From an uncultured Oscillospiraceae bacterium (GTDB taxonomy: Bacteria; Bacillota; Clostridia; Oscillospirales; Acutalibacteraceae), in assembly GCA_900545655.1 (NCBI GenBank), contig UQZY01000002.1, positions 22,543 through 86,542 of the forward strand: a stretch of DNA of 64,000 nt. The letters run 5' to 3'. A program made the position numbers and the translations under genes. Numbering within the stretch: the stretch's first letter is position 1; the number at the start of each line of letters is the position of its first letter. The notes beneath the pieces were generated by a model. The model searched no databases and had not been told where the DNA came from. It saw only the letters and a program-made list of their open reading frames with translations. This document shows, piece by piece, positions 37,352 through 50,597 of the stretch.

Positions 37352-38002
37352 GTGCAAAATAAGAATGAACGGCACGAAAGTTCGGATTTCTTGTGTCAAA
37401 AATTTTATACATTGCGACACAAAACATGTCCTATTTTACCTTATGAGAGTTATCCGCATATCATAGTAGATGATACCGTAGACAAGTTGGAGCGAGAGGG
37501 CACGGAATATTGTCTTTGCGAGAAAAATGTGCTAGGATACTATAGAGGAAACAAGGAAAAATATGACCTCATAGACATAATAATCATAGGGCTCGGAGGC
37601 TTTGAGAAAAAGGATGATGAAACCATCATAGGCTTTCTTGACAACATACTGGACCGAGACCTTGAGCCGCTGATGAGAAGAAAAATACTTAAAGAGAAAT
37701 TTGACATAACAACAGATGAAGACTTTATGGAGGTGTTTGATGACATGTGTAACTTAAGCGACGGTGTATATCTTGACGGAGTGGAAAAAGGTATTATGCA
37801 GGGCAAGGCAGAAGGACTCTTGCAAGGTGAAGCTCGTGGCATTGAAAAAGGAATCATGCAGGGCAAAGCAGAGGGTATCATACAAAATAAAATTGATATG
37901 CTCAGACAGTTTATGTCCAACAATCATACGTTTGAAGAATTTATACAGTTATTCAACATAACCGACAAAAACGAAATAAAGTTTTTGAAGGAAAATCTGT
38001 AA
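37352..38002 (+). CDS. Rpn/YhgA-family (PD-(D/E)XK putative transposase) C-terminal-half remnant (DUF4351-like); probably a gene fragment
   Basis: C-terminal EDFMEVFDDMCNLSDGVYLDGVEKGIMQGKAEGLLQGEARGIEKGIMQGKAEGIIQNKIDMLRQFM matches the G-rich (E/K)G(I/L)xQG repeats and trailing helix of Rpn proteins. The N-terminal nuclease core is absent. No ATG or RBS; the ORF starts at a GTG inside AT-rich DNA. Confidence 0.35.
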   Translation: MQNKNERHESSDFLCQKFYTLRHKTCPILPYESYPHIIVDDTVDKLEREGTEYCLCEKNVLGYYRGNKEKYDLIDIIIIGLGGFEKKDDETIIGFLDNILDRDLEPLMRRKILKEKFDITTDEDFMEVFDDMCNLSDGVYLDGVEKGIMQGKAEGLLQGEARGIEKGIMQGKAEGIIQNKIDMLRQFMSNNHTFEEFIQLFNITDKNEIKFLKENL

Positions 38003-38032
38003 AAATTTGATATAACAATAGAGGATAAACAA

Positions 38033-38062
38033 AAAAGCAGTCCGGTTGGACTGCTTTTCTTT
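38033..38062. terminator. bidirectional terminator shared by 37352 ORF and tRNA-Leu
   Basis: aaaagcagtcc-ggtt-ggactgctttt palindrome with T-runs on both strands. Confidence 0.7.
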
Positions 38063-38147
38063 TGGTGCACCTGACAGGAATCGAACCTGCACCTCTTGCG
38101 AGACTAGATCCTAAGTCTAGCGCGTCTGCCAGTTCCGCCACAGGTGC
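38063..38147 (-). tRNA. tRNA-Leu (anticodon UAG), class II with long variable arm, encoded CCA
   Basis: Reverse complement reads GCACCTGTGGCGGAACTGGCAGACGCGCTAGACTTAGGATCTAGTCTCGCAAGAGGTGCAGGTTCGATTCCTGTCAGGTGCACCA. 7-bp acceptor stem. Anticodon loop CTTAGGA gives TAG with G37. T-loop GGTTCGATTCC. Confidence 0.9.
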
Positions 38148-41739: not shown

Positions 41740-42423
41740 TTGAAAAGCATAAATTTATTTGAAGGTTTAACGGAAAGAGAGATAAAGAAGATATGCTCCG
41801 ATAAGGAGTGCAGAAAAACTGCATATTCAGAGGGAGATATCATCTTTTCAAAGGAAAAATTTGAAAGGGCAATCGGAATAATCCTTGAGGGCAGGGCGTC
41901 TGTTTATACGCCTGACGGGAGTGTCATGATAAGGAGACTTAAAAAGCACGATTGCTTTGGGATTGCTACGCTTTTTAACGATGAGAACAGATATATCTCA
42001 AAAATAGTTGCAATAGATTATTGCAAGGTTTTTTTTATTCCTGAGCGTGTTGTAATTGACTTTGTTGAGGAGTATCCGAGGTTTGCCATTAATTGTATCG
42101 CTCTTCAGAGCAAAAAAACCAGATATCTCAACATTCTTATTGACATATACTCATCCTCGAGTGTGACGATGAAACTTTCAAAATATCTGTTGGAGGGAGA
42201 AGCAAATGCAGGTTTTTTGCAGGAGTTTTCACCGACAAGGCTTTCAAACATACTCAGTATAGGCAGAGCCTCTCTTTACAGGGCTCTTGAAGAGTTTGAA
42301 AATACAGGTGCAATAAAAACGGAAGGAAAGAAAATAATTGTATCTGATATGGAAATTTTAAAAAAATTTGCAAATGGCAGTATGAAAGGAGATAACCATG
42401 AAGAAGAAACTAACAACAGTTAA
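41740..42423 (+). CDS. Crp/Fnr-family transcriptional regulator (cNMP-binding + C-terminal HTH)
   Basis: TTG start. cNMP-like beta-roll GDIIFSKEKFERAIGIILEGRASVY. C-terminal HTH LSNILSIGRASLYRALEEFENTGAI. The 3' end overlaps hydC by 26 nt. Confidence 0.7.
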   Translation: MKSINLFEGLTEREIKKICSDKECRKTAYSEGDIIFSKEKFERAIGIILEGRASVYTPDGSVMIRRLKKHDCFGIATLFNDENRYISKIVAIDYCKVFFIPERVVIDFVEEYPRFAINCIALQSKKTRYLNILIDIYSSSSVTMKLSKYLLEGEANAGFLQEFSPTRLSNILSIGRASLYRALEEFENTGAIKTEGKKIIVSDMEILKKFANGSMKGDNHEEETNNS

Positions 42424-42895
42424 GTTCACGGCCTCGCCGGAAAAAGCAGCTATGCTGGATGAGGCTATTGAGCGATTCAGGGGACAGGGCGGCTGTCTTA
42501 TGCCCATCATGCAGGAAGCACAGGAAATTTACGGATATCTTCCTGTTGAGGTTCAGACGCATATAGCCGAGAAACTTGAAATTTCCGCCGAAGAGGTTTA
42601 CGGAGTAGCTACATTTTATTCCATGTTCAACCTCTCTCCGAAGGGAAAATACTCAATAAGCGTGTGTCTCGGAACAGCGTGCTACGTAAAAGGCTCACAG
42701 GATGTTCTTGACAGACTTTGCAGTGAACTCGGAATAGGTCCGGGAGATTGCACGGAGGACGGAAAATTTTCAATTGAGGCCTGCCGCTGTGTAGGTGCCT
42801 GCGGCCTTGCCCCAGTAATGATGATAAATGATGATGTTTATGGTCGTCTTACTCCGGACATGATTCCGGGTATTCTTGAAAAGTACAAGGACTGA
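42398..42895 (+). CDS. hydC: [FeFe]-hydrogenase gamma subunit / NuoE-like thioredoxin-fold [2Fe-2S] protein (HydC/HndA)
   Basis: CLGTACYVKGSQ...CRCVGACGLAPV NuoE-type Cys4 motif. GGAGA RBS. Confidence 0.85.
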   Translation: MKKKLTTVKFTASPEKAAMLDEAIERFRGQGGCLMPIMQEAQEIYGYLPVEVQTHIAEKLEISAEEVYGVATFYSMFNLSPKGKYSISVCLGTACYVKGSQDVLDRLCSELGIGPGDCTEDGKFSIEACRCVGACGLAPVMMINDDVYGRLTPDMIPGILEKYKD

Positions 42896-42934: not shown

Positions 42935-43294
42935 ATGAAGATTGTAACTATTAAAGAACTGTTGGGCGCAGAGGTTTTATGTAACGAAGATAAGCTGGAT
43001 TGTCAGGTGTACTCCGCTTGCGGCAGCGACATGATGAGCAATGTGCTGGCATATGTGGAGGAGGAAGCAATCCTTCTGACCGGGCTTATCAATTCTCAGG
43101 TTATTAGAACTGCGGAAATGATGGATATGGTTTGCGTGGTATTCGTAAGAGGAAAAATACCGACCCCGGAAATGGTTGAGCTTGCGAGGGACTCCGGAAT
43201 AGTCCTCCTGATTACTGATAAAACCATGTTTGAGACCTGCGGTATTCTGTATGAAAACGGTTTACGAGGAAGGGTGACAACCGAGCATGAGTGA
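42935..43294 (+). CDS. DRTGG-domain protein
   Basis: 119 aa with DMMSNVLAYVEEEAILLTGLINSQVIRTAEMMDMVCVVFVRGKIPTPEMVELARDSGIVLLITDKTMFE, the DRTGG-domain pattern seen in hydrogenase loci. Confidence 0.65.
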   Translation: MKIVTIKELLGAEVLCNEDKLDCQVYSACGSDMMSNVLAYVEEEAILLTGLINSQVIRTAEMMDMVCVVFVRGKIPTPEMVELARDSGIVLLITDKTMFETCGILYENGLRGRVTTEHE

Positions 43295-43712
43295 ACCCTT
43301 AAAGTTTCATTATGACGTTGACGGTGAGGATTTTACCTCGGCGGGTCTGGCGTCGGTTCAGGTGAAAAAAACCTTATCTCAATTGGGACTCAACTCAGAT
43401 GTCATAAGACGTATTTCAATCGCGATGTATGAAGGGGAAATAAATATGGTCATACACGCGGGCGGAGGAGTCGCAGACGTAGATATCTTTGAGGATCATA
43501 TAGCTATAGCGCTTATTGATCACGGTCCCGGTATAAAGGATATAGGTCTTGCCATGCAGGAAGGGTATTCGACAGCGCCTGAAAGCATACGTTCACTGGG
43601 CTTCGGTGCCGGTATGGGTCTTCCAAATATGAAACGTTACACGGATAAAATGGAAATAACTTCTGTTGTGGGTGTAGGTACAACGATAAATATGGAAGTT
43701 TGGTTTAAGTAA
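43287..43712 (+). CDS. GHKL/HATPase_c protein, anti-sigma-factor-like serine kinase (RsbW/SpoIIAB-like)
   Basis: 141 aa with N-box and G-box segments IAMYEGEINMVIHAGGG...HGPGIKD...GFGAGMGLP. Confidence 0.65.
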   Translation: MSEPLKFHYDVDGEDFTSAGLASVQVKKTLSQLGLNSDVIRRISIAMYEGEINMVIHAGGGVADVDIFEDHIAIALIDHGPGIKDIGLAMQEGYSTAPESIRSLGFGAGMGLPNMKRYTDKMEITSVVGVGTTINMEVWFK

Positions 43713-43733
43713 TTTCAGAAAGCAACCTTAAGG

Positions 43734-45005
43734 GTGAGAGTTATGACAACATATCAGCACTCAGTTATTCTTGATACCTCAAAGTGTACGGGTTGTACTA
43801 CCTGTACAAAGCACTGTCCTACGGAGGCAATAAGAATAAAGGATGGGGTGGCATCCATAAACTCCGACAGATGCATTGACTGCGGCGAGTGTATAAGACA
43901 CTGTCCGCATCATGCCAAGAAAGCGAATTACAGCAAGTTTTCTACGGGGGATAAGGGTAAGTGGAAGATTGCTCTTCCCGCTCCGACTCTTTATGCACAG
44001 TTTGACGGTCTTGATGATACAAACTATGTATTGTCCGGCCTTATTGATATCGGCTTCGACAGTGTGTTTGAGGTTGCAAAGGCAGCTGAGCTGGTATCTG
44101 CATATACGAGAAATTACCTCAAATTCGACTGGATAAAAAGGCCTGCGATAAGCTCTGCTTGTCCTGTTATCATCAGGCTTATTCAGTTTAGATTTCCGTC
44201 TCTTACAGACAATATCGTTACGCTTTTACCGCCGGTTGAGATTGCGGCTATGATGGCAAGAGAAGATGCCCTTTCAAAGCATCCGGAATTAAAGGCGGAG
44301 GATATCAAGGTTTACTTTATTTCTCCGTGCCCGGCAAAGGTCAGCTATGTAAACAACGGCTTCGGTAAACACAAAAGCTATGTTGATGAGGTTCTCTCAA
44401 TAAGTGATATCTACTTTCAGCTTCTCTCGGTCATGAAAAGAAAGAATGAGCCGAGGCAGCTTTCGGAATCCGGAAGGATAGGAGTGAGTTGGGCACAGTC
44501 GGGCGGAGAATCATCTGCTCTTTTCAGCGAGCACTATCTTGCCGCCGACGGAATTGAAAATGTTATAAGAGTTCTTGATCAAATTGAAAACAGTTCTATT
44601 CCTCAGCTTGACTTTATTGAACTCAACGCATGCCCGGGAGGCTGTGTAGGAGGAGTCATGTGCGTAGAAAATCCGTTTATAGCAAAGGCAAGATTGCTTT
44701 CTCTCAGAAATTATCTGCCGGTATCACAGACCTTTCCCAAAACGGAAAAGGGCGACAACTTTATACCGCGCGACTTTTTCTTTGACGAGTTTCCGAAGTA
44801 CAGCCCCATCAGTAAGCTCAGCGACAATATAGGTGAATCGATGAGAATGATGGCAGCCATTCAGGCTCTGAAGGAAAGCTTACCCGGAATTGATTGCGGA
44901 GCGTGCGGCGCACCCACCTGCAGAGCTTTTGCCGAGGATGTGGTAAAGGGAGAAGCAAGGATAAAGAACTGTAAGATAAGAACGCCGGAGGATGCAGAAA
45001 AATGA
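43734..45005 (+). CDS. sensory-type [FeFe]-hydrogenase homolog (HydS/HfsB-like, Group C-like): 2x[4Fe-4S] ferredoxin + partially degenerate H-cluster domain + C-terminal Cys4 motif
   Basis: CTGCTTCTKHCP and CIDCGECIRHCP ferredoxin motifs. H-domain motifs L1-like SSACPVII (one Cys), L2-like ISPCPAKV, L3 ELNACPGGCVGGVMC. C-terminal DCGACGAPTCRAF...NC. Confidence 0.7.
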   Translation: MRVMTTYQHSVILDTSKCTGCTTCTKHCPTEAIRIKDGVASINSDRCIDCGECIRHCPHHAKKANYSKFSTGDKGKWKIALPAPTLYAQFDGLDDTNYVLSGLIDIGFDSVFEVAKAAELVSAYTRNYLKFDWIKRPAISSACPVIIRLIQFRFPSLTDNIVTLLPPVEIAAMMAREDALSKHPELKAEDIKVYFISPCPAKVSYVNNGFGKHKSYVDEVLSISDIYFQLLSVMKRKNEPRQLSESGRIGVSWAQSGGESSALFSEHYLAADGIENVIRVLDQIENSSIPQLDFIELNACPGGCVGGVMCVENPFIAKARLLSLRNYLPVSQTFPKTEKGDNFIPRDFFFDEFPKYSPISKLSDNIGESMRMMAAIQALKESLPGIDCGACGAPTCRAFAEDVVKGEARIKNCKIRTPEDAEK

Positions 45006-45328
45006 CTGTTTCGGAACTTGTGAAAAAACTGAATCTCAAAGCGGTTACATTGCCAGGGCCAGAAAGGGTTATAGGCGGAGTGTATATCGGCGACCTGTTG
45101 AGCTTTGTCATGGGAAAAGCCCGTGAGGGCGATGTATGGATAACCATAATGTCGAATATCAACGTTATGGCTGTCGCTACACTTGCAAATACTTCGTGTA
45201 TTATTCTTGCGGAGGGTGTCACTCTTGAGGAGAAAATTGTTGATACCGCAAAGGAAAAGTGTATCAATATTCTTTCTTCGGATAAGACGGCATATGAGCT
45301 TGCGGTTGAAATTTCAAGAGCGGTATGA
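45002..45328 (+). CDS. DRTGG-domain protein (second copy)
   Basis: 108 aa with GDLLSFVMGKAREGDVWITIMSNINVMAVATLANTSCIILAEG...AKEKCINILSSDKTAYE. Overlaps the upstream stop. Confidence 0.65.
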   Translation: MTVSELVKKLNLKAVTLPGPERVIGGVYIGDLLSFVMGKAREGDVWITIMSNINVMAVATLANTSCIILAEGVTLEEKIVDTAKEKCINILSSDKTAYELAVEISRAV

Positions 45329-45331
45329 AGC

Positions 45332-46081
45332 ATGAGATATTATTATGATTTTCATATTCACTCGTGCCTGTCTCCTTGTGCTGACAATGATATGACGCCG
45401 AACAATATCTCCGGAATGCTTAAGCTTGCCGGTATAAAGGTTGCGGCACTGACGGACCACAACTCCCTTAAAAACTGTCCGGCTTTTTTTGAGGCGGCAG
45501 AGCGTAACGGGATTATACCGATAGCGGGTGTTGAGATAACCACCTTGGAGGATATCCACGTTGTATGTCTTTTCAGAAGGCTTTCGGCGGCTATGGAATT
45601 TGATGTGGAACTTTACAGACACAGGGTGCTTATAAAGAATAAAACCGAGGTGTTCGGAGATCAGCTTATTTTGGACGGAAAAGACGCGACTGTTTCTACG
45701 GAACCGTATTTTCTGACAAACGCGACTGATTTGTCCGTGGACGATATTCCGCTACTCGTAAAAAATTTTAACGGTATTTCATACCCCGCTCATGTTGACA
45801 GAGAGGCAAACGGTATCATTGCAATTCTCGGTGATTTTCCCGAAAAGCCGGCATTTGACTGTGTGGAATTTCGCAGTTTTGAAAATAAGGAGAAATACAT
45901 AAAGGCATACGATAAGCTTGTCGGGAAAAAGGTGTTGTACGGATCGGATTCACATTTTTTATGCGGAATCGAAGACGCGGCAAATGCCTTTGAATTTGAA
46001 GCCGAGGAAAGGGATCCTCTTGTTGTTACAGACAAAATTTTTGATTTTATCGCGGGAGATTGTGAGGGAACGGTTTTATGA
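45332..46081 (+). CDS. PHP-domain phosphoesterase (predicted protein phosphatase of the cassette)
   Basis: N-terminal YYDFHIHSCLSPCAD and LTDHNS metal-binding His motifs of the PHP fold. Confidence 0.7.
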   Translation: MRYYYDFHIHSCLSPCADNDMTPNNISGMLKLAGIKVAALTDHNSLKNCPAFFEAAERNGIIPIAGVEITTLEDIHVVCLFRRLSAAMEFDVELYRHRVLIKNKTEVFGDQLILDGKDATVSTEPYFLTNATDLSVDDIPLLVKNFNGISYPAHVDREANGIIAILGDFPEKPAFDCVEFRSFENKEKYIKAYDKLVGKKVLYGSDSHFLCGIEDAANAFEFEAEERDPLVVTDKIFDFIAGDCEGTVL

Positions 46082-46635
46082 AGGAACTGTCACTTAACAT
46101 CTTGGATGTTGCAAAAAATTCCGTGACTGCGGGTGCGACCCTTATTGAAATAACAATTTCCGAGACAGACGAGACGATGGAAATCATGATAAGGGATAAC
46201 GGCTGCGGGATGGATGAGGAAACCATAAACAGCGTGACAAATCCGTTTTATACGACAAGAACAACACGTTCCGTGGGACTTGGGGTTCCTCTTTTTAAAA
46301 TGGAAGCGGAAATGACGGGCGGATGGCTTAAGATAACTTCATATTCGAAAGAAGAGTATCCAGACAGACACGGGACTGCGGTAACAGCCTTCTTTAATAA
46401 AAAACACATAGACTTTATAGGACTCGGAGATATGGTCTCCACCATAACCACTCTCGTGGGTGGTTCTCCGGATGTTGATTTCATATTTTTACACACTTAT
46501 GGGGAGAAGTCGGTGTCCGTTGATACGCGTGAAATACGCGTAGCTGTCGGTGAGGATATCTCGCTTGACAATATTGAAATACTTTTATGGATTGAAAATT
46601 CATTGAAAGAAGAATACGGAAATTTGTACTATTAA
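46078..46635 (+). CDS. GHKL/HATPase_c protein (second serine-kinase-like ATPase)
   Basis: LNILDVAKNSVTAGAT...IRDNGCGMDEETINSVTNPFYTTR...GLGVPL (N, G1, G2 boxes). Confidence 0.65.
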   Translation: MKELSLNILDVAKNSVTAGATLIEITISETDETMEIMIRDNGCGMDEETINSVTNPFYTTRTTRSVGLGVPLFKMEAEMTGGWLKITSYSKEEYPDRHGTAVTAFFNKKHIDFIGLGDMVSTITTLVGGSPDVDFIFLHTYGEKSVSVDTREIRVAVGEDISLDNIEILLWIENSLKEEYGNLYY

Positions 46636-46646
46636 CAAAGAAAGGG

Positions 46647-47027
46647 TTGATTAAGATGAAATCTCTTGCAGAGCTTGAGGAGATCCGCAACAAAATGAAG
46701 CCGTCGGTAGTGCTTCGTGAGGATTCGGGAAAAACGCGTGTGGTTGTAGGTATGGCTACATGCGGAATAGCAGCCGGAGCACGACCTGTTTTGCAATCAT
46801 TTGTTGAAAATGTTGCAAATGAAGGACTCGGTGACAAGGTGCAGGTTCTCCAGACAGGGTGTATAGGAATATGTCGTTACGAGCCTGTTGCCGAGGTTTA
46901 CGAGGCGGGAAAAGAGAAGGTTACGTATGTAAAGCTTGATGCCGAAAAAGCAAAACGTATTGTTGAGGAACATCTCAAGGGCGGTAAAGTTGTTGCAGAG
47001 TATACCATTGCAAATTATGAAAAATAA
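46647..47027 (+). CDS. thioredoxin-like [2Fe-2S] ferredoxin (HndB-like small subunit)
   Basis: MATCGIAAGARPV...TGCIGICRYEPV. Confidence 0.7.
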   Translation: MIKMKSLAELEEIRNKMKPSVVLREDSGKTRVVVGMATCGIAAGARPVLQSFVENVANEGLGDKVQVLQTGCIGICRYEPVAEVYEAGKEKVTYVKLDAEKAKRIVEEHLKGGKVVAEYTIANYEK

Positions 47028-47033
47028 AGAGAG

Positions 47034-48842
47034 GTGTTAAGCATGATTCGTTCACAAGTACTTATTTGTGGTGGTACAGGCTGTACCTCTTACGGAAGCA
47101 AGCTTGTCAGGGAGGCGTTTGAAAGGGAAATTTCCGCAAAAGGTCTCTTGGATGAAGTGAAAATCGTCGGGACCGGCTGTTTCGGTCTTTGCGGTTACGG
47201 ACCGGTAGTCATTGTTTATCCCGACGGAACTTTTTACGGTAAGCTGACGCCTGAGGATGTGCCCGAGATAGTTGAAGAGCATCTTCTCAAAGGTCGTGTG
47301 GTAACAAGACTTGAATACAAGGATGTCAACATGACTCCGGATATCGACCTTTCACAGGTTTCTTTGGCTGATACGACTTTTTATAAGACGCAAAAGAGAA
47401 TTGCTTTGCGCAACTGCGGTGTCATAGACCCAGAGCAGATTGACGAGTATATCGCAATGGACGGATATCGTGCTCTCGGTAAATGTCTTACGGAAATGAC
47501 TCCTCAGCAGGTTATAGATGTTGTCCTTGATTCCGGTCTTTGCGGACGCGGCGGTGCGGGATTCCCGACAGGACGCAAATGGTCGTTTGCAGCTGCAAAT
47601 GACGCCGACCAAAAGTATGTATGCTGTAATGCCGATGAGGGCGACCCGGGAGCATTCATGGACCGTTCGGTGCTTGAGGGAGATCCGCATGCATTGCTTG
47701 AGGCAATGACTATCGCGGGATACGCAATAGGCGCAAACCAGGGTTACATATACGTGCGTGCAGAGTATCCTATAGCAGTAAAGCGTCTTAAGATTGCTAT
47801 CGCTCAGTCAAGAGAATACGGACTTCTCGGAAAGAATATTTTTGATTCCGGATTTGATTTTGATATTGATATACGTCTTGGCGCCGGTGCGTTTGTATGC
47901 GGTGAGGAAACGGCTCTCATGACCTCTATCGAGGGTAAGAGGGGAGAACCTCGCCCGCGTCCTCCGTTCCCGGCAGTTAAGGGCCTTTTCGCAAAGCCCA
48001 CTATTTTGAACAACGTTGAGACATACGCCAACATCCCGCAGATTATTCTTAACGGTGCCGATTGGTTTAAGTCAATGGGTACCGAAAAGTCCAAGGGAAC
48101 GAAGGTGTTCGCACTCGGCGGAAAGATAAACAACACGGGACTTGTAGAGGTTCCCATGGGTACGACTCTTCGACATATCGTCGAGGATATAGGCGGCGGT
48201 ATACCGGACGGTAAAAAGTTTAAGGCTGCACAGACCGGAGGTCCTTCCGGCGGATGTATCCCTGCAGAGCATTTTGATATTGAAATTGACTATGACAATC
48301 TTCTTGCCATCGGCTCAATGATGGGCTCCGGCGGGCTTATCGTAATGGATGAGGATACCTGTATGGTTGATATCGCCAAATTCTTCCTTGAGTTCACCGT
48401 TGACGAGTCATGTGGAAAGTGCACACCGTGTCGTATCGGTACGCGCAGGCTTCTTGAAATTCTCAACAAGATAACCTCCGGCGAGGGAACAATGGAAGAC
48501 CTCGACGAGCTTGAGGAGCTTGCCAATCTTATCAAGGATACGGCCCTTTGCGGTCTCGGTCAGACGGCTCCGAATCCTGTCCTTTCAACACTTCACTTTT
48601 TCAGGGACGAATACATCGCCCATATCGTAGATAAGAAGTGTCCTGCAGGCGTCTGCAAAAACCTTCTTACCTTCAAAATTATCGAAGACAAGTGTAAGGG
48701 ATGCACAAAGTGCGCGAGAAACTGTCCTGTTTCCGCAATCAGCGGTACGGTCAAGCAACCGCATGTTATTGATACATTCAAGTGTATCAAGTGCGGTGCT
48801 TGTATTGAAAACTGTGCTTTTGACGCAATAATCAAGGAATAA
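47034..48842 (+). CDS. hydB: [FeFe]-hydrogenase beta subunit / NuoF-like NAD(P)H-binding flavoprotein (HydB/HndC)
   Basis: N-terminal [2Fe-2S] block VLICGGTGCTSYGS. FMN/NADH site GRGGAGFPTGRKW. SLBB domain. 4Fe-4S CGKCTPCRIG. C-terminal 2x ferredoxin motifs CKGCTKCARNCP and CIKCGACIENC. Confidence 0.9.
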   Translation: MLSMIRSQVLICGGTGCTSYGSKLVREAFEREISAKGLLDEVKIVGTGCFGLCGYGPVVIVYPDGTFYGKLTPEDVPEIVEEHLLKGRVVTRLEYKDVNMTPDIDLSQVSLADTTFYKTQKRIALRNCGVIDPEQIDEYIAMDGYRALGKCLTEMTPQQVIDVVLDSGLCGRGGAGFPTGRKWSFAAANDADQKYVCCNADEGDPGAFMDRSVLEGDPHALLEAMTIAGYAIGANQGYIYVRAEYPIAVKRLKIAIAQSREYGLLGKNIFDSGFDFDIDIRLGAGAFVCGEETALMTSIEGKRGEPRPRPPFPAVKGLFAKPTILNNVETYANIPQIILNGADWFKSMGTEKSKGTKVFALGGKINNTGLVEVPMGTTLRHIVEDIGGGIPDGKKFKAAQTGGPSGGCIPAEHFDIEIDYDNLLAIGSMMGSGGLIVMDEDTCMVDIAKFFLEFTVDESCGKCTPCRIGTRRLLEILNKITSGEGTMEDLDELEELANLIKDTALCGLGQTAPNPVLSTLHFFRDEYIAHIVDKKCPAGVCKNLLTFKIIEDKCKGCTKCARNCPVSAISGTVKQPHVIDTFKCIKCGACIENCAFDAIIKE

Positions 48843-48857
48843 GGAGAGAGTATAGAT

Positions 48858-50597
48858 ATGAATATGGTAAATGTTACAATCAACGGTATGAAAATAAGCG
48901 TACCACAGGGCTCTACTATACTCGAGGCTGCAAGGGAACTCGGAATTGAGATACCGACTCTTTGCTTTATGAGAAAGAAAAACGAGATTGGTGCATGCCG
49001 CATTTGTGTTGTAGAGGTCAAAGGCGCAAAAACTCTCGTTACGGCATGTGTTATGCCTGTTTCTGAGGGAATGGATATACTTACAAACTCGGACAGAGTT
49101 ATAAAAGCAAGAAAGAAAATCATAGAATTGATTCTTTCAAATCACAACTGTTCCTGCCTTTCATGTGACAGATCCGAGAACTGCGAGCTTCAGACACTTG
49201 CACGTAATTACGGAGTGGACATGAACAAATTTGAAGGACAGAAGACGGAATCGGATTTTGATGAAAGCTCTCCTTCAATAGTGAGGGATAACAGCAAGTG
49301 TATACTTTGCCGTCGCTGCGTTGCCGCTTGTGAATCACAGACGGGAGTTATCGGTGCAAACCACAGAGGCTTTGATACCGTAATAGGCTGTGCTTTTGAG
49401 TCAAAACTTGCAGACGTTGCATGCGTGAACTGCGGACAATGTATAGAAGCCTGTCCTACGGGTGCTCTTTCCGAAAAAGATCAGATAGATGACGTTATAG
49501 CCGCTATAAACAATCCGGAAAAGGTTGTTGTCGTACAGACAGCTCCCGCAATACGTGTTGCGATAGCCGAGGCATTCGGAAATCCTGTCGGAACAATGGC
49601 AAAGGGAAAAATGGTTGCAGCGCTCAGAAGACTTGGTTTTGATAAGGTTTTTGATACTGATTTTACGGCCGACCTTACAATTATGGAGGAGGCTACGGAA
49701 TTCCTTGACAGATTCAAAAACGGCGGAACGCTTCCCCTTATCACAAGCTGCTCGCCGGGATGGATAAAATTCTGTGAGACATACTATCCGGAGTTTATCC
49801 CGAATCTTTCCACATGTAAATCTCCGCAGCAGATGTTCGGTGCAACGCTCAAGACCTGGTGGGCAGAAAAGAACGGAATCGACCCGAGGCGTATAGTTTC
49901 CGTTTCAATCATGCCGTGTACCGCAAAGAAATTTGAAATCGGTAGAGAAAACGAAGCTGCTGCCGGAATACCGGATGTTGACTATGTTCTTACTACAAGG
50001 GAGCTTGCAAAGATGATAAAACGTGCAGGTATTAACTTCAATGCTCTTCCCGATGAGGAATACGACAGCCCTCTCGGAGAGGCAACAGGTGCCGGAGTTA
50101 TCTTTGCCGCAACGGGCGGTGTTATGGAGGCAGCTCTTCGAACGGCTGTGGATGTCATAACGGGCAAGGACAACGAGACATATGACTTTACAGAGGTGCG
50201 CGGAACCGACGGAATCAAGGAGGCAACATATAAGGTTGGGGATATTGAACTCAGCGTTGCGGTTGCAAGCGGACTTGACAATGCAAGAAAGGTTCTCGAG
50301 GACGTAAAGAGCGGTAAAAAGAACTACCAGTTTATAGAAATCATGTGTTGCCCTGAGGGCTGTGTAAACGGCGGAGGACAGCCGATTCATCCGAATTGGG
50401 AGCGTCAGACTATGGATATTCCGGCTATTCGTTCAAAATCAATCTATGAGGAGGATAGGCATCTTCCGAAGCGTAAGTCACATAAGAACGAAGAGGTTAA
50501 GCTACTTTATGACGAATATTTCGGAAGTCCCAACAGTCATAAGGCTCATGAAATTCTCCATACAACATACATTGACAGATTGGGTACACTCAAGTAA
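48858..50597 (+). CDS. hydA: [FeFe]-hydrogenase catalytic subunit HydA (N-terminal 2Fe-2S + 4Fe-4S domains, H-cluster domain)
   Basis: H-cluster motifs L1 TSCSPGW (see finding), L2 MPCTAKKFE, L3 EIMCCPEGCVNGGGQP. N-terminal CRICVVEV 2Fe-2S block and 2x CxxCxxCxxxCP. Confidence 0.9.
   Translation: MNMVNVTINGMKISVPQGSTILEAARELGIEIPTLCFMRKKNEIGACRICVVEVKGAKTLVTACVMPVSEGMDILTNSDRVIKARKKIIELILSNHNCSCLSCDRSENCELQTLARNYGVDMNKFEGQKTESDFDESSPSIVRDNSKCILCRRCVAACESQTGVIGANHRGFDTVIGCAFESKLADVACVNCGQCIEACPTGALSEKDQIDDVIAAINNPEKVVVVQTAPAIRVAIAEAFGNPVGTMAKGKMVAALRRLGFDKVFDTDFTADLTIMEEATEFLDRFKNGGTLPLITSCSPGWIKFCETYYPEFIPNLSTCKSPQQMFGATLKTWWAEKNGIDPRRIVSVSIMPCTAKKFEIGRENEAAAGIPDVDYVLTTRELAKMIKRAGINFNALPDEEYDSPLGEATGAGVIFAATGGVMEAALRTAVDVITGKDNETYDFTEVRGTDGIKEATYKVGDIELSVAVASGLDNARKVLEDVKSGKKNYQFIEIMCCPEGCVNGGGQPIHPNWERQTMDIPAIRSKSIYEEDRHLPKRKSHKNEEVKLLYDEYFGSPNSHKAHEILHTTYIDRLGTLK

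What the first reader, a model, noticed from the sequence alone, without database searches (positions are those of the whole stretch)
43734..45005. Sensory hydrogenase homolog with incomplete H-cluster ligand set and an extra C-terminal Cys4 motif
The protein keeps two N-terminal [4Fe-4S] ferredoxin motifs and recognisable L2 and L3 H-cluster motifs (SPCPAK, ELNACPGGCVGG). Its L1-equivalent has a single Cys (SSACPV). It ends with DCGACGAPTCRAF...NC rather than a PAS domain. This fits a regulatory (Group C-like) rather than catalytic role, but the C-terminal metal site differs from the PAS-containing HydS/HfsB proteins I know of.
Basis: partly seen in the sequence, partly recalled or inferred. 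Interest (0 to 1): 0.55.

Follow-up and report, generated by a model that had tools for sequence, protein, structure and literature searches.

The report
Known-type putative hydrogen-sensing [FeFe] hydrogenase
This gene encodes an ordinary member of an already described family of slow, probably hydrogen-sensing iron hydrogenases (Group D, "M2e", HydS-type) that sits next to the cell's main hydrogen-producing enzyme; its metal-binding site is complete, not defective.

Summary
The protein (420-423 aa) has two ferredoxin-type [4Fe-4S] motifs, an [FeFe]-hydrogenase H-domain and a C-terminal Cx2Cx4Cx16C motif (Pfam PF04060). It has no PAS domain.

In SSACPV, Ala replaces the proton-relay Cys (CpI C299). 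The ligand Cys (C300) is kept, so all four [4Fe-4S]H cysteines are present.

This combination is the published definition of Group D / M2e putative sensory hydrogenases, whose model enzyme is TamHydS. That definition includes no C299, Ser at M353, the Group-D-specific Glu/Glu/Ser/Asp proton path and a position upstream of a bifurcating HydABC. The protein is about 49% identical to TamHydS. PAS-containing Group C proteins carry the same C-terminal Cys4 motif, so that site is not a difference.

The family is large: at least 593 species genomes carry it. It lies in a conserved cassette: DRTGG, SpoIIAB-like ATPase, M2e, DRTGG, PHP, GHKL ATPase, then HydB and HydA.

One modest new point: all 10 long family representatives are natural fusions of M2e to the flanking DRTGG or ATPase proteins. 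This suggests those neighbours are the signalling partners.

Verdict: a new member of a known kind, of low interest.

The parts
43743..45005 (+). Group D (M2e, HydS-type) [FeFe]-hydrogenase gene, 420 aa. The mechanical ORF starts at GTG 43734.
   Evidence: ORF. RBS and ATG. P0001 is 420 aa and 100% identical. Domains.
43785..43907 (+). Two ferredoxin-type [4Fe-4S] motifs (C18/21/24/28 and C47/50/53/57), forming the N-terminal F-domain.
   Evidence: Pfam Fer4 families. Cys conserved in 99-113 of 113 family members.
43971..44654 (+). H-domain (Fe_hyd_lg_C), residues 80-307.
   Evidence: Pfam 1.1e-25. AF2 model pLDDT 92.9. Best PDB folds are [FeFe] hydrogenases.
44151..44168 (+). L1 variant SSACPV. 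Ala142 replaces the proton-relay Cys (CpI C299). Cys143 is the [4Fe-4S]H ligand (C300).
   Evidence: Alignments. Family column 142 shows A38/S23/F16/T11 with no Cys among the 10 commonest residues; column 143 is Cys in 112/113. TamHydS has ISSACPA.
44322..44339 (+). L2 SPCPAK. Ser197 sits at the CpI M353 position, Cys199 corresponds to C355, and Lys202 to K358.
   Evidence: position 197 is T52/S45 and C199 is Cys in 112/113. Ser/Thr at M353 is a conserved M2e trait.
44499..44510 (+). SGGE. Ser256 and Glu259 match TamHydS S249 and E252. With D272 and E296 they form the Group-D-specific alternative proton path.
44619..44654 (+). L3 ELNACPGGCVGG. Glu296 matches TamHydS E289, Asn298 sits at the M497 position, and C300 and C304 correspond to C499 and C503.
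   Evidence: Cys in 110/113 at each position; position 298 is variable (R/L/N/S/Y/M).
44892..44972 (+). C-terminal Cx2Cx4Cx16C site for a fourth [4Fe-4S] cluster (PF04060, RnfB-like).
   Evidence: Pfam 2e-15. RnfB chain 9eri_B matches at 1e-13 on residues 378-415. Cys in 106-109/113. Shown to be a [4Fe-4S] cluster in TamHydS.
42935..43294 (+). DRTGG-domain protein 1. Its end overlaps the next gene by 8 nt.
   Evidence: Pfam. Present in 77 of 83 related loci. Fused to the N-terminus of M2e in P0168 and P0202.
43287..43712 (+). SpoIIAB-like HATPase_c_2 protein (Ser-kinase / anti-sigma type). N, G1 and G2 boxes are visible by eye.
   Evidence: Pfam and TIGR01925 hits. Nearest PDB chain is SpoIIAB, 1e-6. 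Present in 81/83 loci. Fused to M2e in P0161.
45002..45328 (+). DRTGG-domain protein 2. Its start ATGA overlaps the M2e stop codon.
   Evidence: Pfam. Present in 80/83 loci. Fused to the C-terminus of M2e in 7 representatives.
45332..46081 (+). PHP-domain metal phosphoesterase, a candidate phosphatase.
   Evidence: Pfam. Present in 77/83 loci. Present in distant loci L081 and L087.
46078..46635 (+). Stand-alone GHKL ATPase (HATPase_c) with no His-phosphoacceptor domain.
   Evidence: Pfam. PDB matches cover only histidine-kinase catalytic domains. Present in 76/83 loci.
42398..42895 (+). HydC (NuoE-type [2Fe-2S]) subunit of the bifurcating hydrogenase.
46647..50597 (+). Thioredoxin-like [2Fe-2S] ferredoxin (46647-47027), HydB/NuoF (47034-48842) and catalytic HydA (48858-50597). 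These are the presumed target of regulation.
   Evidence: HydA scores 891 bits to NCBIfam 'NADH-dependent [FeFe] hydrogenase group A6'.
41740..42423 (+). Crp/Fnr-family regulator at the head of the gene string. It overlaps hydC by 26 nt and is not conserved in relatives.
   Evidence: Pfam. No hits in 83 related loci.

Best explanation
The gene encodes a Group D (M2e subclass, HydS-type) [FeFe] hydrogenase.

Predicted cofactors: it should bind a normal H-cluster through four cysteines, plus two N-terminal [4Fe-4S] clusters and one C-terminal [4Fe-4S] cluster.

Active-site differences from Group A:
- The Group-A proton pathway is replaced: C299 to Ala, E279 to Ser, E282 to Thr, R286 to Leu and S319 to Val.
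- A Glu259-Glu296-Ser256-Asp272 path takes its place.
- Met353 is Ser.

Expected behaviour, by analogy: the characterised homologue TamHydS turns over H2 slowly, binds it with raised affinity and dwells in reduced states. That behaviour suits a sensor. This is not shown for the present protein.

Inferred mechanism: the H2-dependent state of the protein is passed by direct contact to the proteins of the flanking genes. These are two DRTGG proteins, a SpoIIAB-like ATPase/Ser-kinase, a PHP phosphoesterase and a stand-alone GHKL ATPase. Together they would form a PAS-less, partner-switching-like module that tunes the co-encoded electron-bifurcating hydrogenase HydABC according to H2 level.

Confidence by step: identity as Group D about 0.95, H2-sensor role about 0.6, partner-switching mechanism about 0.35.
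For: Architecture: Fer4 x2 + Fe_hyd_lg_C + PF04060, with no PAS.

Ligand mapping: Ala on C299, Cys on C300.

Conservation in 113 diverse members:
- the four H-cluster Cys are present in 110-112 of 113
- position 142 has no Cys among the 10 commonest residues
- position 197 is Ser/Thr in 97 of 113
- the C-terminal Cys4 is present in 106-109 of 113
- E259 is Glu in 84 of 113, E296 in 103 of 113, and D272 is Asp in 78 of 113

Literature: these are the published defining traits of M2e / Group D and of its exclusive proton path.

Similarity: about 49% identity over 410 aa to TamHydS. The TamHydS sequence was rebuilt from the paper's coding sequence, and its register matched 19 of 19 published residue numbers.

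Structure: AF2 pLDDT 92.9, and the best PDB folds are [FeFe] hydrogenases.

Gene context: the cassette DRTGG, HATPase_c_2, M2e, DRTGG, PHP, HATPase_c, then HydB and HydA is kept in most of 83 loci, down to 32-40% identity.

Fusions and coupling: all 10 representatives of 500 aa or more are M2e fused to orthologues of DRTGG2 (7), DRTGG1 (2) or the SpoIIAB-like ATPase (1). One fusion was seen on independent NCBI and JGI contigs. Start and stop codons overlap at three junctions of the cassette.

Prior classification: M2e proteins have been classed as sensory since 2012 because of their position near kinases and bifurcating hydrogenases.
Against: - No Group D protein has been shown to sense H2 in vivo.
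- TamHydS still catalyses H2 evolution and oxidation at low rates.
- Its C-terminal cluster is not reduced by H2, and mutating it hardly changes activity. The obvious signalling element therefore seems not to signal through its redox state.
- The cassette has no conserved DNA-binding or sigma-factor output. The Crp-type gene upstream is absent from 83 related loci.
- The DRTGG proteins are not known kinase substrates.
- H-cluster insertion cannot be tested here. No HydE/F/G gene was found among the 20 larger window ORFs scanned.
- The AF2 model of a natural M2e-DRTGG fusion is confident (pTM 0.84), but no PAE or coordinates were available, so no interface was verified.
Confidence: 0.7

Rival explanations
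1. It is simply a slow but genuine metabolic hydrogenase. It would exchange electrons with ferredoxin through its N-terminal clusters, and its position near regulators would be incidental.
For: TamHydS evolves and oxidises H2 close to the thermodynamic potential. All H-cluster ligands and the K358 equivalent are kept. The two N-terminal clusters are of the type used for catalytic electron transfer in M2 enzymes.
Against: TamHydS rates are low and the Group A proton path is missing. The gene is locked in a conserved cassette with ATPase, kinase-like and phosphoesterase genes, and is sometimes fused to them. That pattern is not expected for a plain redox enzyme. A fully catalytic HydA is encoded 4 kb downstream.
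Confidence: 0.15
2. It senses cellular redox state (ferredoxin or NADH poise) rather than H2. This could work through its Fe-S clusters, with or without a [2Fe]H subsite, as in the Nar1/NARF hydrogenase-like proteins.
For: It carries four Fe-S sites. The C-terminal cluster of TamHydS needs a stronger reductant than H2. Authors of omics papers leave open 'H2 levels or redox changes'.
Against: TamHydS spontaneously incorporates [2Fe]adt and responds to H2. Residues lining the [2Fe]H pocket and the dedicated proton path E259/E296 are conserved across the family. A cluster-only sensor would have no use for them.
Confidence: 0.1
3. It is a stoichiometric accessory subunit of the HydABC complex, for example an extra electron entry module, rather than a regulator.
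For: It is encoded between hydC and hydB/hydA in one gene string with short gaps.
Against: Solved HydABC complexes from A. woodii, T. kivui and T. maritima contain no such subunit (PDB chains; paper). The conserved partners are ATPase, DRTGG and PHP proteins, and the natural fusions are to those, not to HydA, HydB or HydC.
Confidence: 0.04
4. It is a Group C (PAS-type, HydS/HfsB) sensory hydrogenase.
For: It shares the N-terminal clusters, the loss of C299 and the same C-terminal Cys4 motif.
Against: No PAS domain, even at E<=10. The protein ends 10 residues after the last Cys. It has Ser at M353 and the Group-D-exclusive E252-type path.
Confidence: 0.01

Closest known systems
TamHydS, Thermoanaerobacter mathranii HydS ([FeFe] hydrogenase Group D, subclass M2e)
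   Same: - Same domain order.
- L1 is ISSACP in both.
- Ser at the M353 position.
- E/E/S/D alternative proton path.
- Asp before the first C-terminal Cys.
- Identical Cx2Cx4Cx16C spacing.
- A HATPase gene upstream and a bifurcating hydrogenase downstream.
- About 49% identity.
   Different: - Asn298 instead of Leu at the M497 position, a column that varies across the family.
- Asn412 instead of the conserved Asp before the last Cys.
- Lys36 for R32 and Val39 for K35.
- An extra Cys310.
- A Crp-type rather than an AraC-type neighbouring regulator.
- The host is an uncultured gut or rumen Clostridia bacterium rather than a thermophile.
TmHydS / HfsB-type sensory hydrogenases (Group C, subclass M2f)
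   Same: Two N-terminal [4Fe-4S] motifs, an H-domain without the C299 proton relay, the same C-terminal Cys4 cluster domain, and a position next to bifurcating hydrogenase genes.
   Different: Group C carries a PAS domain after the Cys4 motif; this protein has none. TmHydS has Gly at M353 and Ser at M497. The E252-type path is reported as exclusive to Group D.
Prototypical Group A hydrogenases (CpI, DdHydAB, and the window's own HydA)
   Same: Same fold (Foldseek E 1e-17 to 1e-20, TM 0.62-0.71) and the same four-Cys anchoring of the H-cluster.
   Different: Only 18-23% identity. The proton path C299/E279/E282/R286/S319 is replaced. There is no small-subunit-like C-terminus. There is an additional C-terminal cluster.
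PF04060 'FeS' domain of RnfB/RsxB
   Same: Same CxxCxxxxC...C motif. RnfB chain 9eri_B matches residues 378-415 at 1e-13.
   Different: In RnfB the domain is N-terminal and forms part of a membrane redox complex. Here it ends a soluble hydrogenase-like protein.
SpoIIAB-SpoIIAA-SpoIIE partner-switching modules, and the [NiFe] regulatory hydrogenase HoxBC-HoxJ (functional analogies only)
   Same: The upstream neighbour is SpoIIAB-like. A phosphoesterase is also encoded. Like the [NiFe] regulatory hydrogenase, a slow hydrogenase sits beside the genes it may control.
   Different: There is no STAS protein, no PP2C phosphatase, no sigma factor, no PAS or HoxJ kinase and no response regulator. DRTGG and PHP proteins occupy those places.

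Membership tests
[FeFe] hydrogenase Group D (M2e, HydS-type) | H-domain with the four [4Fe-4S]H cysteines (CpI C300, C355, C499, C503) | tested here: met
   C143, C199, C300 and C304 align to them. Conserved in 110-112 of 113 members.
[FeFe] hydrogenase Group D (M2e, HydS-type) | Two N-terminal ferredoxin-type [4Fe-4S] motifs | tested here: met
   Pfam Fer4 families on residues 11-61.
[FeFe] hydrogenase Group D (M2e, HydS-type) | C-terminal Cx2Cx4Cx16C cluster motif | tested here: met
   C388, C391, C396 and C413 have the exact spacing. PF04060 at 2e-15.
[FeFe] hydrogenase Group D (M2e, HydS-type) | No PAS domain | tested here: met
   No PAS hit at E<=0.01 on the whole protein or at E<=10 on the last 113 aa.
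[FeFe] hydrogenase Group D (M2e, HydS-type) | Proton-relay Cys (C299) and the rest of the Group A proton path absent | tested here: met
   Alignment with the window's HydA gives Ala142 for C299, Ser for E279, Thr for E282, Leu for R286 and Val for S319. DdH alignment.
[FeFe] hydrogenase Group D (M2e, HydS-type) | Hydroxyl residue (Ser/Thr) at the M353 position | tested here: met
   Ser197. The family column is T52/S45 of 113.
[FeFe] hydrogenase Group D (M2e, HydS-type) | Group-D-exclusive proton path E252-E289-S249-D265 (TamHydS numbering) | tested here: met
   E259, E296, S256 and D272.
[FeFe] hydrogenase Group D (M2e, HydS-type) | Encoded upstream of a multimeric bifurcating Group A hydrogenase and beside a histidine-kinase-like ATPase | tested here: met
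   Gene order. Conserved.
[FeFe] hydrogenase Group D (M2e, HydS-type) | Sequence relatedness to the type enzyme TamHydS | tested here: met
   About 49% identity over 410 aa, against 18-23% to Group A. The TamHydS sequence was rebuilt from an OCR-damaged supplement, so the figure is approximate.
[FeFe] hydrogenase Group D (M2e, HydS-type) | Binds a [2Fe]H subsite, with slow H2 turnover and stabilised reduced states | not testable with these tools
   Needs expression, maturation and FTIR/EPR/electrochemistry. Known only for TamHydS.
[FeFe] hydrogenase Group C (M2f; TmHydS, HfsB) | PAS domain C-terminal to the Cys4 motif | tested here: not met
   The protein ends 10 residues after Cys413.
[FeFe] hydrogenase Group A (catalytic) | Canonical L1 TSCCPxW with proton-relay Cys, and MPC in L2 | tested here: not met
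   SSACPV and SPC are found instead. TIGR02512 scores 89 bits against a cut-off of 406.
SpoIIAB/RsbW partner-switching system (for the cassette) | STAS-domain antagonist, PP2C phosphatase and a cognate sigma factor | tested here: not met
   Only the SpoIIAB-like ATPase is present (60 bits against a cut-off of 135). The neighbours are DRTGG, PHP and GHKL proteins.

The most novel reading that the evidence does not exclude
Group D hydrogenases may signal through a dedicated, so far undescribed six-gene module: DRTGG, SpoIIAB-like ATPase, M2e, DRTGG, PHP, GHKL ATPase. They would not signal through a PAS domain or through the redox state of their C-terminal cluster.

In this reading the hydrogenase physically docks the DRTGG and ATPase proteins. 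The evidence is recurrent natural fusions and overlapping start and stop codons. The H2-dependent conformation of the hydrogenase would then gate an ATP-driven, partner-switching-like cycle, reset by the PHP phosphoesterase. That cycle would control HydABC, possibly after translation, since no conserved DNA-binding output is encoded.
Probability: 0.35. Interest if true: 0.55.

Novelty: new member of a known kind. Interest (0 to 1): 0.2.

Why it matters
For this window, little: the protein is a routine member of a family defined in 2010-2012 and studied biochemically since 2019.

It is useful mainly as a correction. Loss of one Cys from the TSCC motif removes the proton relay, not a cluster ligand. 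The C-terminal Cys4 site is shared by all putative sensory [FeFe] hydrogenases.

The wider family still matters. How PAS-less Group D enzymes transmit an H2 signal is an open question stated in the literature. The conserved cassette and the natural fusions to DRTGG and SpoIIAB-like proteins name concrete partners to test. These bacteria are abundant in rumen and gut, where control of H2 production bears on methane emission.

Tried and rejected
- **PAS search.** Searched the C-terminal 113 aa at E<=10 and found nothing.
- **Genome scan.** It returned only close relatives (55-69% identity), so the T. mathranii locus itself was not retrieved. TamHydS had to be rebuilt from an OCR-damaged coding sequence with a frameshift-tolerant alignment. 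The 49% identity is therefore approximate.
- **PDB sequence searches of neighbours.** The PHP protein and both DRTGG proteins gave nothing usable. The only matches were chance hits to designed 'Pizza' repeat proteins.
- **AF2 model of a natural M2e-DRTGG fusion (P0171).** The model was confident, but no PAE or coordinates are exposed, so the interface could not be assessed.
- **Literature.** A search for 'DRTGG' together with hydrogenase found no paper that uses the word. The Greening 2016 ISME J paper is not held, so the correspondence to HydDB class C1 ('histidine kinase-linked') rests on my own knowledge.
- **Crp-type gene upstream.** Considered as the transcriptional output and rejected as a general answer, because it is absent from 83 related loci.
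- **HydE/F/G.** Looked for them in 20 larger ORFs of the window and found none. This is uninformative, since the catalytic HydA needs them too.
- **Nar1-like (no [2Fe]H) reading.** Considered, and kept only as a low-probability rival.
Full report
**The observation**

An ORF on the + strand runs from 43734 to 45005 and encodes 423 aa. The GTG at 43734 lies inside a ribosome-binding site, AAGGGTGAGAG. An ATG follows at 43743. A 100%-identical database protein is 420 aa long. The gene is therefore most likely 43743-45005.

- two CxxCxxCxxxCP motifs
- SSACPV (residues 140-145)
- SPCPAK (197-202)
- ELNACPGGCVGG (296-307)
- DCGACGAPTCRAF...NC (387-413)

Pfam gives two Fer4 motifs, Fe_hyd_lg_C (1e-25) and PF04060 'FeS' (2e-15). 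There is no PAS domain. Searching the last 113 residues alone at E<=10 also finds none.

**The ligand set**

phmmer against PDB aligns 'ISSACPV' with 'FTSCCPG' of the D. desulfuricans enzyme. MAFFT aligns it with 'ITSCSPG' of the window's own HydA.

Ala142 falls on the first Cys of the pair (CpI C299). From established knowledge of CpI and DdH, that Cys starts the proton-transfer pathway and is not a ligand. Cys143 falls on C300, the real [4Fe-4S]H ligand. C199, C300 and C304 correspond to C355, C499 and C503. All four ligands are therefore present, and 'incomplete H-cluster ligand set' is wrong.

The same alignment shows that the rest of the Group A proton path is also replaced: E279 to Ser, E282 to Thr, R286 to Leu and S319 to Val.

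**What it is**

Land et al. 2020 (PMC8163306) define the M2e subclass, or Group D, by:
- two N-terminal [4Fe-4S] motifs
- an H-domain lacking C299 and the Group A proton path
- Ser/Thr at M353
- a C-terminal Cx2Cx4Cx16C motif
- no PAS domain
- a gene upstream of a trimeric bifurcating hydrogenase and next to a histidine-kinase-like ATPase

Cabotaje et al. 2023 (PMC10407848) add a Group-D-exclusive proton path, E252-E289-S249-D265.

The window protein has all of these: Ser197, then E259, E296, S256 and D272.

I rebuilt TamHydS from the coding sequence in the supplement of PMC13104023 with a frameshift-tolerant alignment, because the text had OCR errors. Its register reproduces 19 of 19 published residue numbers. 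It is about 49% identical to the window protein over 410 positions. Its L1 is ISSACPA.

An AF2 model is confident (pLDDT 92.9, pTM 0.91). Its best PDB matches are [FeFe] hydrogenases at 18-22% identity. No closer, Group C/D-like match appeared among them.

**The family**

HMMER against 1.84 billion representatives finds 384 clusters at E<=1e-30. Most are full-length at 410-460 aa.

In 113 diverse members:
- the four H-cluster cysteines are kept in 110-112
- position 142 has no Cys among its commonest residues (A, S, F, T and others)
- the M353 position is Ser/Thr in 97
- the C-terminal Cys4 is kept in 106-109

The window protein is a consensus member. Its only small departures are Asn412 where most have Asp, Asn298 at the variable M497 position, and an extra Cys310.

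NCBI already annotates the near-identical protein as '[Fe-Fe] hydrogenase large subunit C-terminal domain-containing protein' from a Clostridia MAG. The closest genomes are rumen and gut Oscillospiraceae, Acutalibacteraceae and Ruminococcaceae MAGs.

**The C-terminal site and PAS**

The literature states that the same Cys4 domain is 'a unifying structural feature' of Group C (M2f) and Group D (M2e). In Group C it sits between the H-domain and PAS. Only the PAS domain is missing here. That makes the protein Group D rather than Group C.

In TamHydS the site binds a [4Fe-4S] cluster. That cluster is not reduced by H2, and disrupting it hardly affects catalysis.

**Gene context**

The gene lies in one tightly packed + strand string:
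1. Crp-type regulator (41740)
2. HydC/NuoE (42398)
3. DRTGG protein (42935)
4. SpoIIAB-like HATPase_c_2 (43287)
5. M2e (43743)
6. DRTGG protein (45002)
7. PHP phosphoesterase (45332)
8. stand-alone GHKL ATPase (46078)
9. [2Fe-2S] ferredoxin (46647)
10. HydB/NuoF (47034)
11. HydA (48858)

Three junctions have overlapping start and stop codons.

tblastn of these proteins against 83 related loci shows the same order in nearly all of them: HATPase_c_2 in 81, DRTGG2 in 80, PHP in 77 and GHKL in 76. The cassette persists in loci whose M2e is only 40% and 32% identical (L081, L087).

The Crp gene is not conserved.

The placement agrees with older comparative work. That work listed 'D M2e' genes five genes upstream of bifurcating hydrogenases in Caldicellulosiruptor, Caldanaerobacter, C. 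thermocellum and Thermoanaerobacter. It classed them as sensory for that reason.

**How it most likely works**

Shown for the homologue only: TamHydS binds [2Fe]adt, turns over H2 slowly, has raised H2 affinity and stabilises reduced H-cluster states. E252 and E289 are needed for activity.

Inferred for this protein: the same chemistry, because all the residues involved are conserved.

How the signal leaves a PAS-less protein is stated as an open question. All 10 family representatives of 500 aa or more turn out to be natural fusions of M2e:
- seven with a C-terminal domain orthologous to the downstream DRTGG protein (29-43% identity to the window's DRTGG2)
- two with an N-terminal domain orthologous to the upstream DRTGG protein (41-43%)
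- one with the SpoIIAB-like ATPase (45%)

One fusion occurs on independent NCBI and JGI contigs, in the expected cassette position. Together with the conserved order and the overlapping start and stop codons, this argues that M2e contacts these proteins directly.

The upstream ATPase is nearest to the anti-sigma factor/Ser-kinase SpoIIAB. By eye it keeps the N, G1 and G2 boxes. The PHP protein keeps its HxH motif.

I therefore propose an H2-gated, ATP-dependent, partner-switching-like module acting on HydABC. It would have DRTGG in place of STAS and PHP in place of PP2C. This step is inference. No STAS protein, PP2C phosphatase, sigma factor or conserved DNA-binding protein is present.

I found no paper in the library that mentions DRTGG together with hydrogenases.

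**Rivals**

- A slow metabolic hydrogenase (0.15).
- A redox sensor rather than an H2 sensor, possibly without [2Fe]H (0.10).
- A stoichiometric HydABC subunit (0.04). Solved HydABC complexes lack such a subunit.
- A Group C sensor (0.01), excluded by the absence of PAS.

**Side observation**

The catalytic HydA of this window reads TSCSPGW. Here it is the ligand Cys (C300) that is replaced, by Ser.

A. woodii HydA1 has the identical motif. Katsyv et al. 2023 report Ser301 as a ligand of the A1 cluster with no effect on the H-cluster spectra. All 41 related loci whose HydA could be read have TSCSP.

So in this locus the 'sensor' has the all-Cys site and the 'enzyme' has the variant one. This variant is already known.

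**Verdict**

The protein is a typical Group D (M2e, HydS-type) putative H2-sensing hydrogenase in its typical cassette next to HydABC. It is a new member of a known kind, with interest about 0.2.

The only forward-looking element is the fusion-based pointer to DRTGG and SpoIIAB-like proteins as the missing signalling partners of Group D sensors.

Noticed in passing
window 49743-49763 (HydA gene 48858-50597): The catalytic HydA has L1 = TSCSPGW. The [4Fe-4S]H ligand Cys (CpI C300) is Ser, while the proton-relay Cys is kept. A. woodii HydA1 (7q4v) has the identical motif, and Ser301 is reported there as a cluster ligand with normal spectra. All 41 readable HydA genes in related loci also have TSCSP.
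   Followed up: yes
window 50337-50384: The L3 motif of the same HydA reads EIMCCPEGCVNGGGQP. It has an extra Cys just before the C499 equivalent, and Glu in place of the first Gly. Relatives mostly have MACPGGC or MGCPGGC, and 3 of 41 have MCCPGGC. Whether the extra Cys compensates for the Ser ligand is unknown.
   Followed up: partly
window 43731-43745: The mechanical ORF start (GTG 43734) lies inside the Shine-Dalgarno-like AAGGGTGAGAG. The real start is probably ATG 43743, giving 420 aa, the length of the identical database protein.
   Followed up: yes
proteins P0147, P0171, P0229, P0224, P0249, P0166, P0284, P0168, P0202, P0161; loci L085, L086, L084: Natural fusions of the M2e hydrogenase with orthologues of its flanking genes: DRTGG2-like at the C-terminus (7), DRTGG1-like at the N-terminus (2) and the SpoIIAB-like ATPase at the N-terminus (1). 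These are all 10 of the family representatives of 500 aa or more.
   Followed up: partly
window 41740-42423: A Crp/Fnr-family regulator heads the hydrogenase gene string and overlaps hydC by 26 nt. No counterpart was found in 83 related loci, so it looks like a lineage-specific addition.
   Followed up: partly
window 44967-44972 and 44661-44663: Two small departures of this protein from the Group D consensus. Asn412 precedes the last cluster Cys, where 76 of 113 members have Asp; that Asp was proposed to tune the cluster potential in TamHydS. There is also an extra Cys310, shared by only 6 of 113 members.
   Followed up: no
window 38063-38147 (- strand): A single tRNA-Leu gene. The 62-aa ORF listed at 37953-38141 on the - strand overlaps it and is probably not a gene.
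   Followed up: no
window 42398-42895 and 46647-47027: The locus encodes a full NuoE-type HydC at the head of the string and a second, shorter thioredoxin-like [2Fe-2S] ferredoxin (126 aa) directly before hydB. The same pair recurs in distant loci L081 and L087. It may be a fourth (HydD-like) subunit of the hydrogenase.
   Followed up: no
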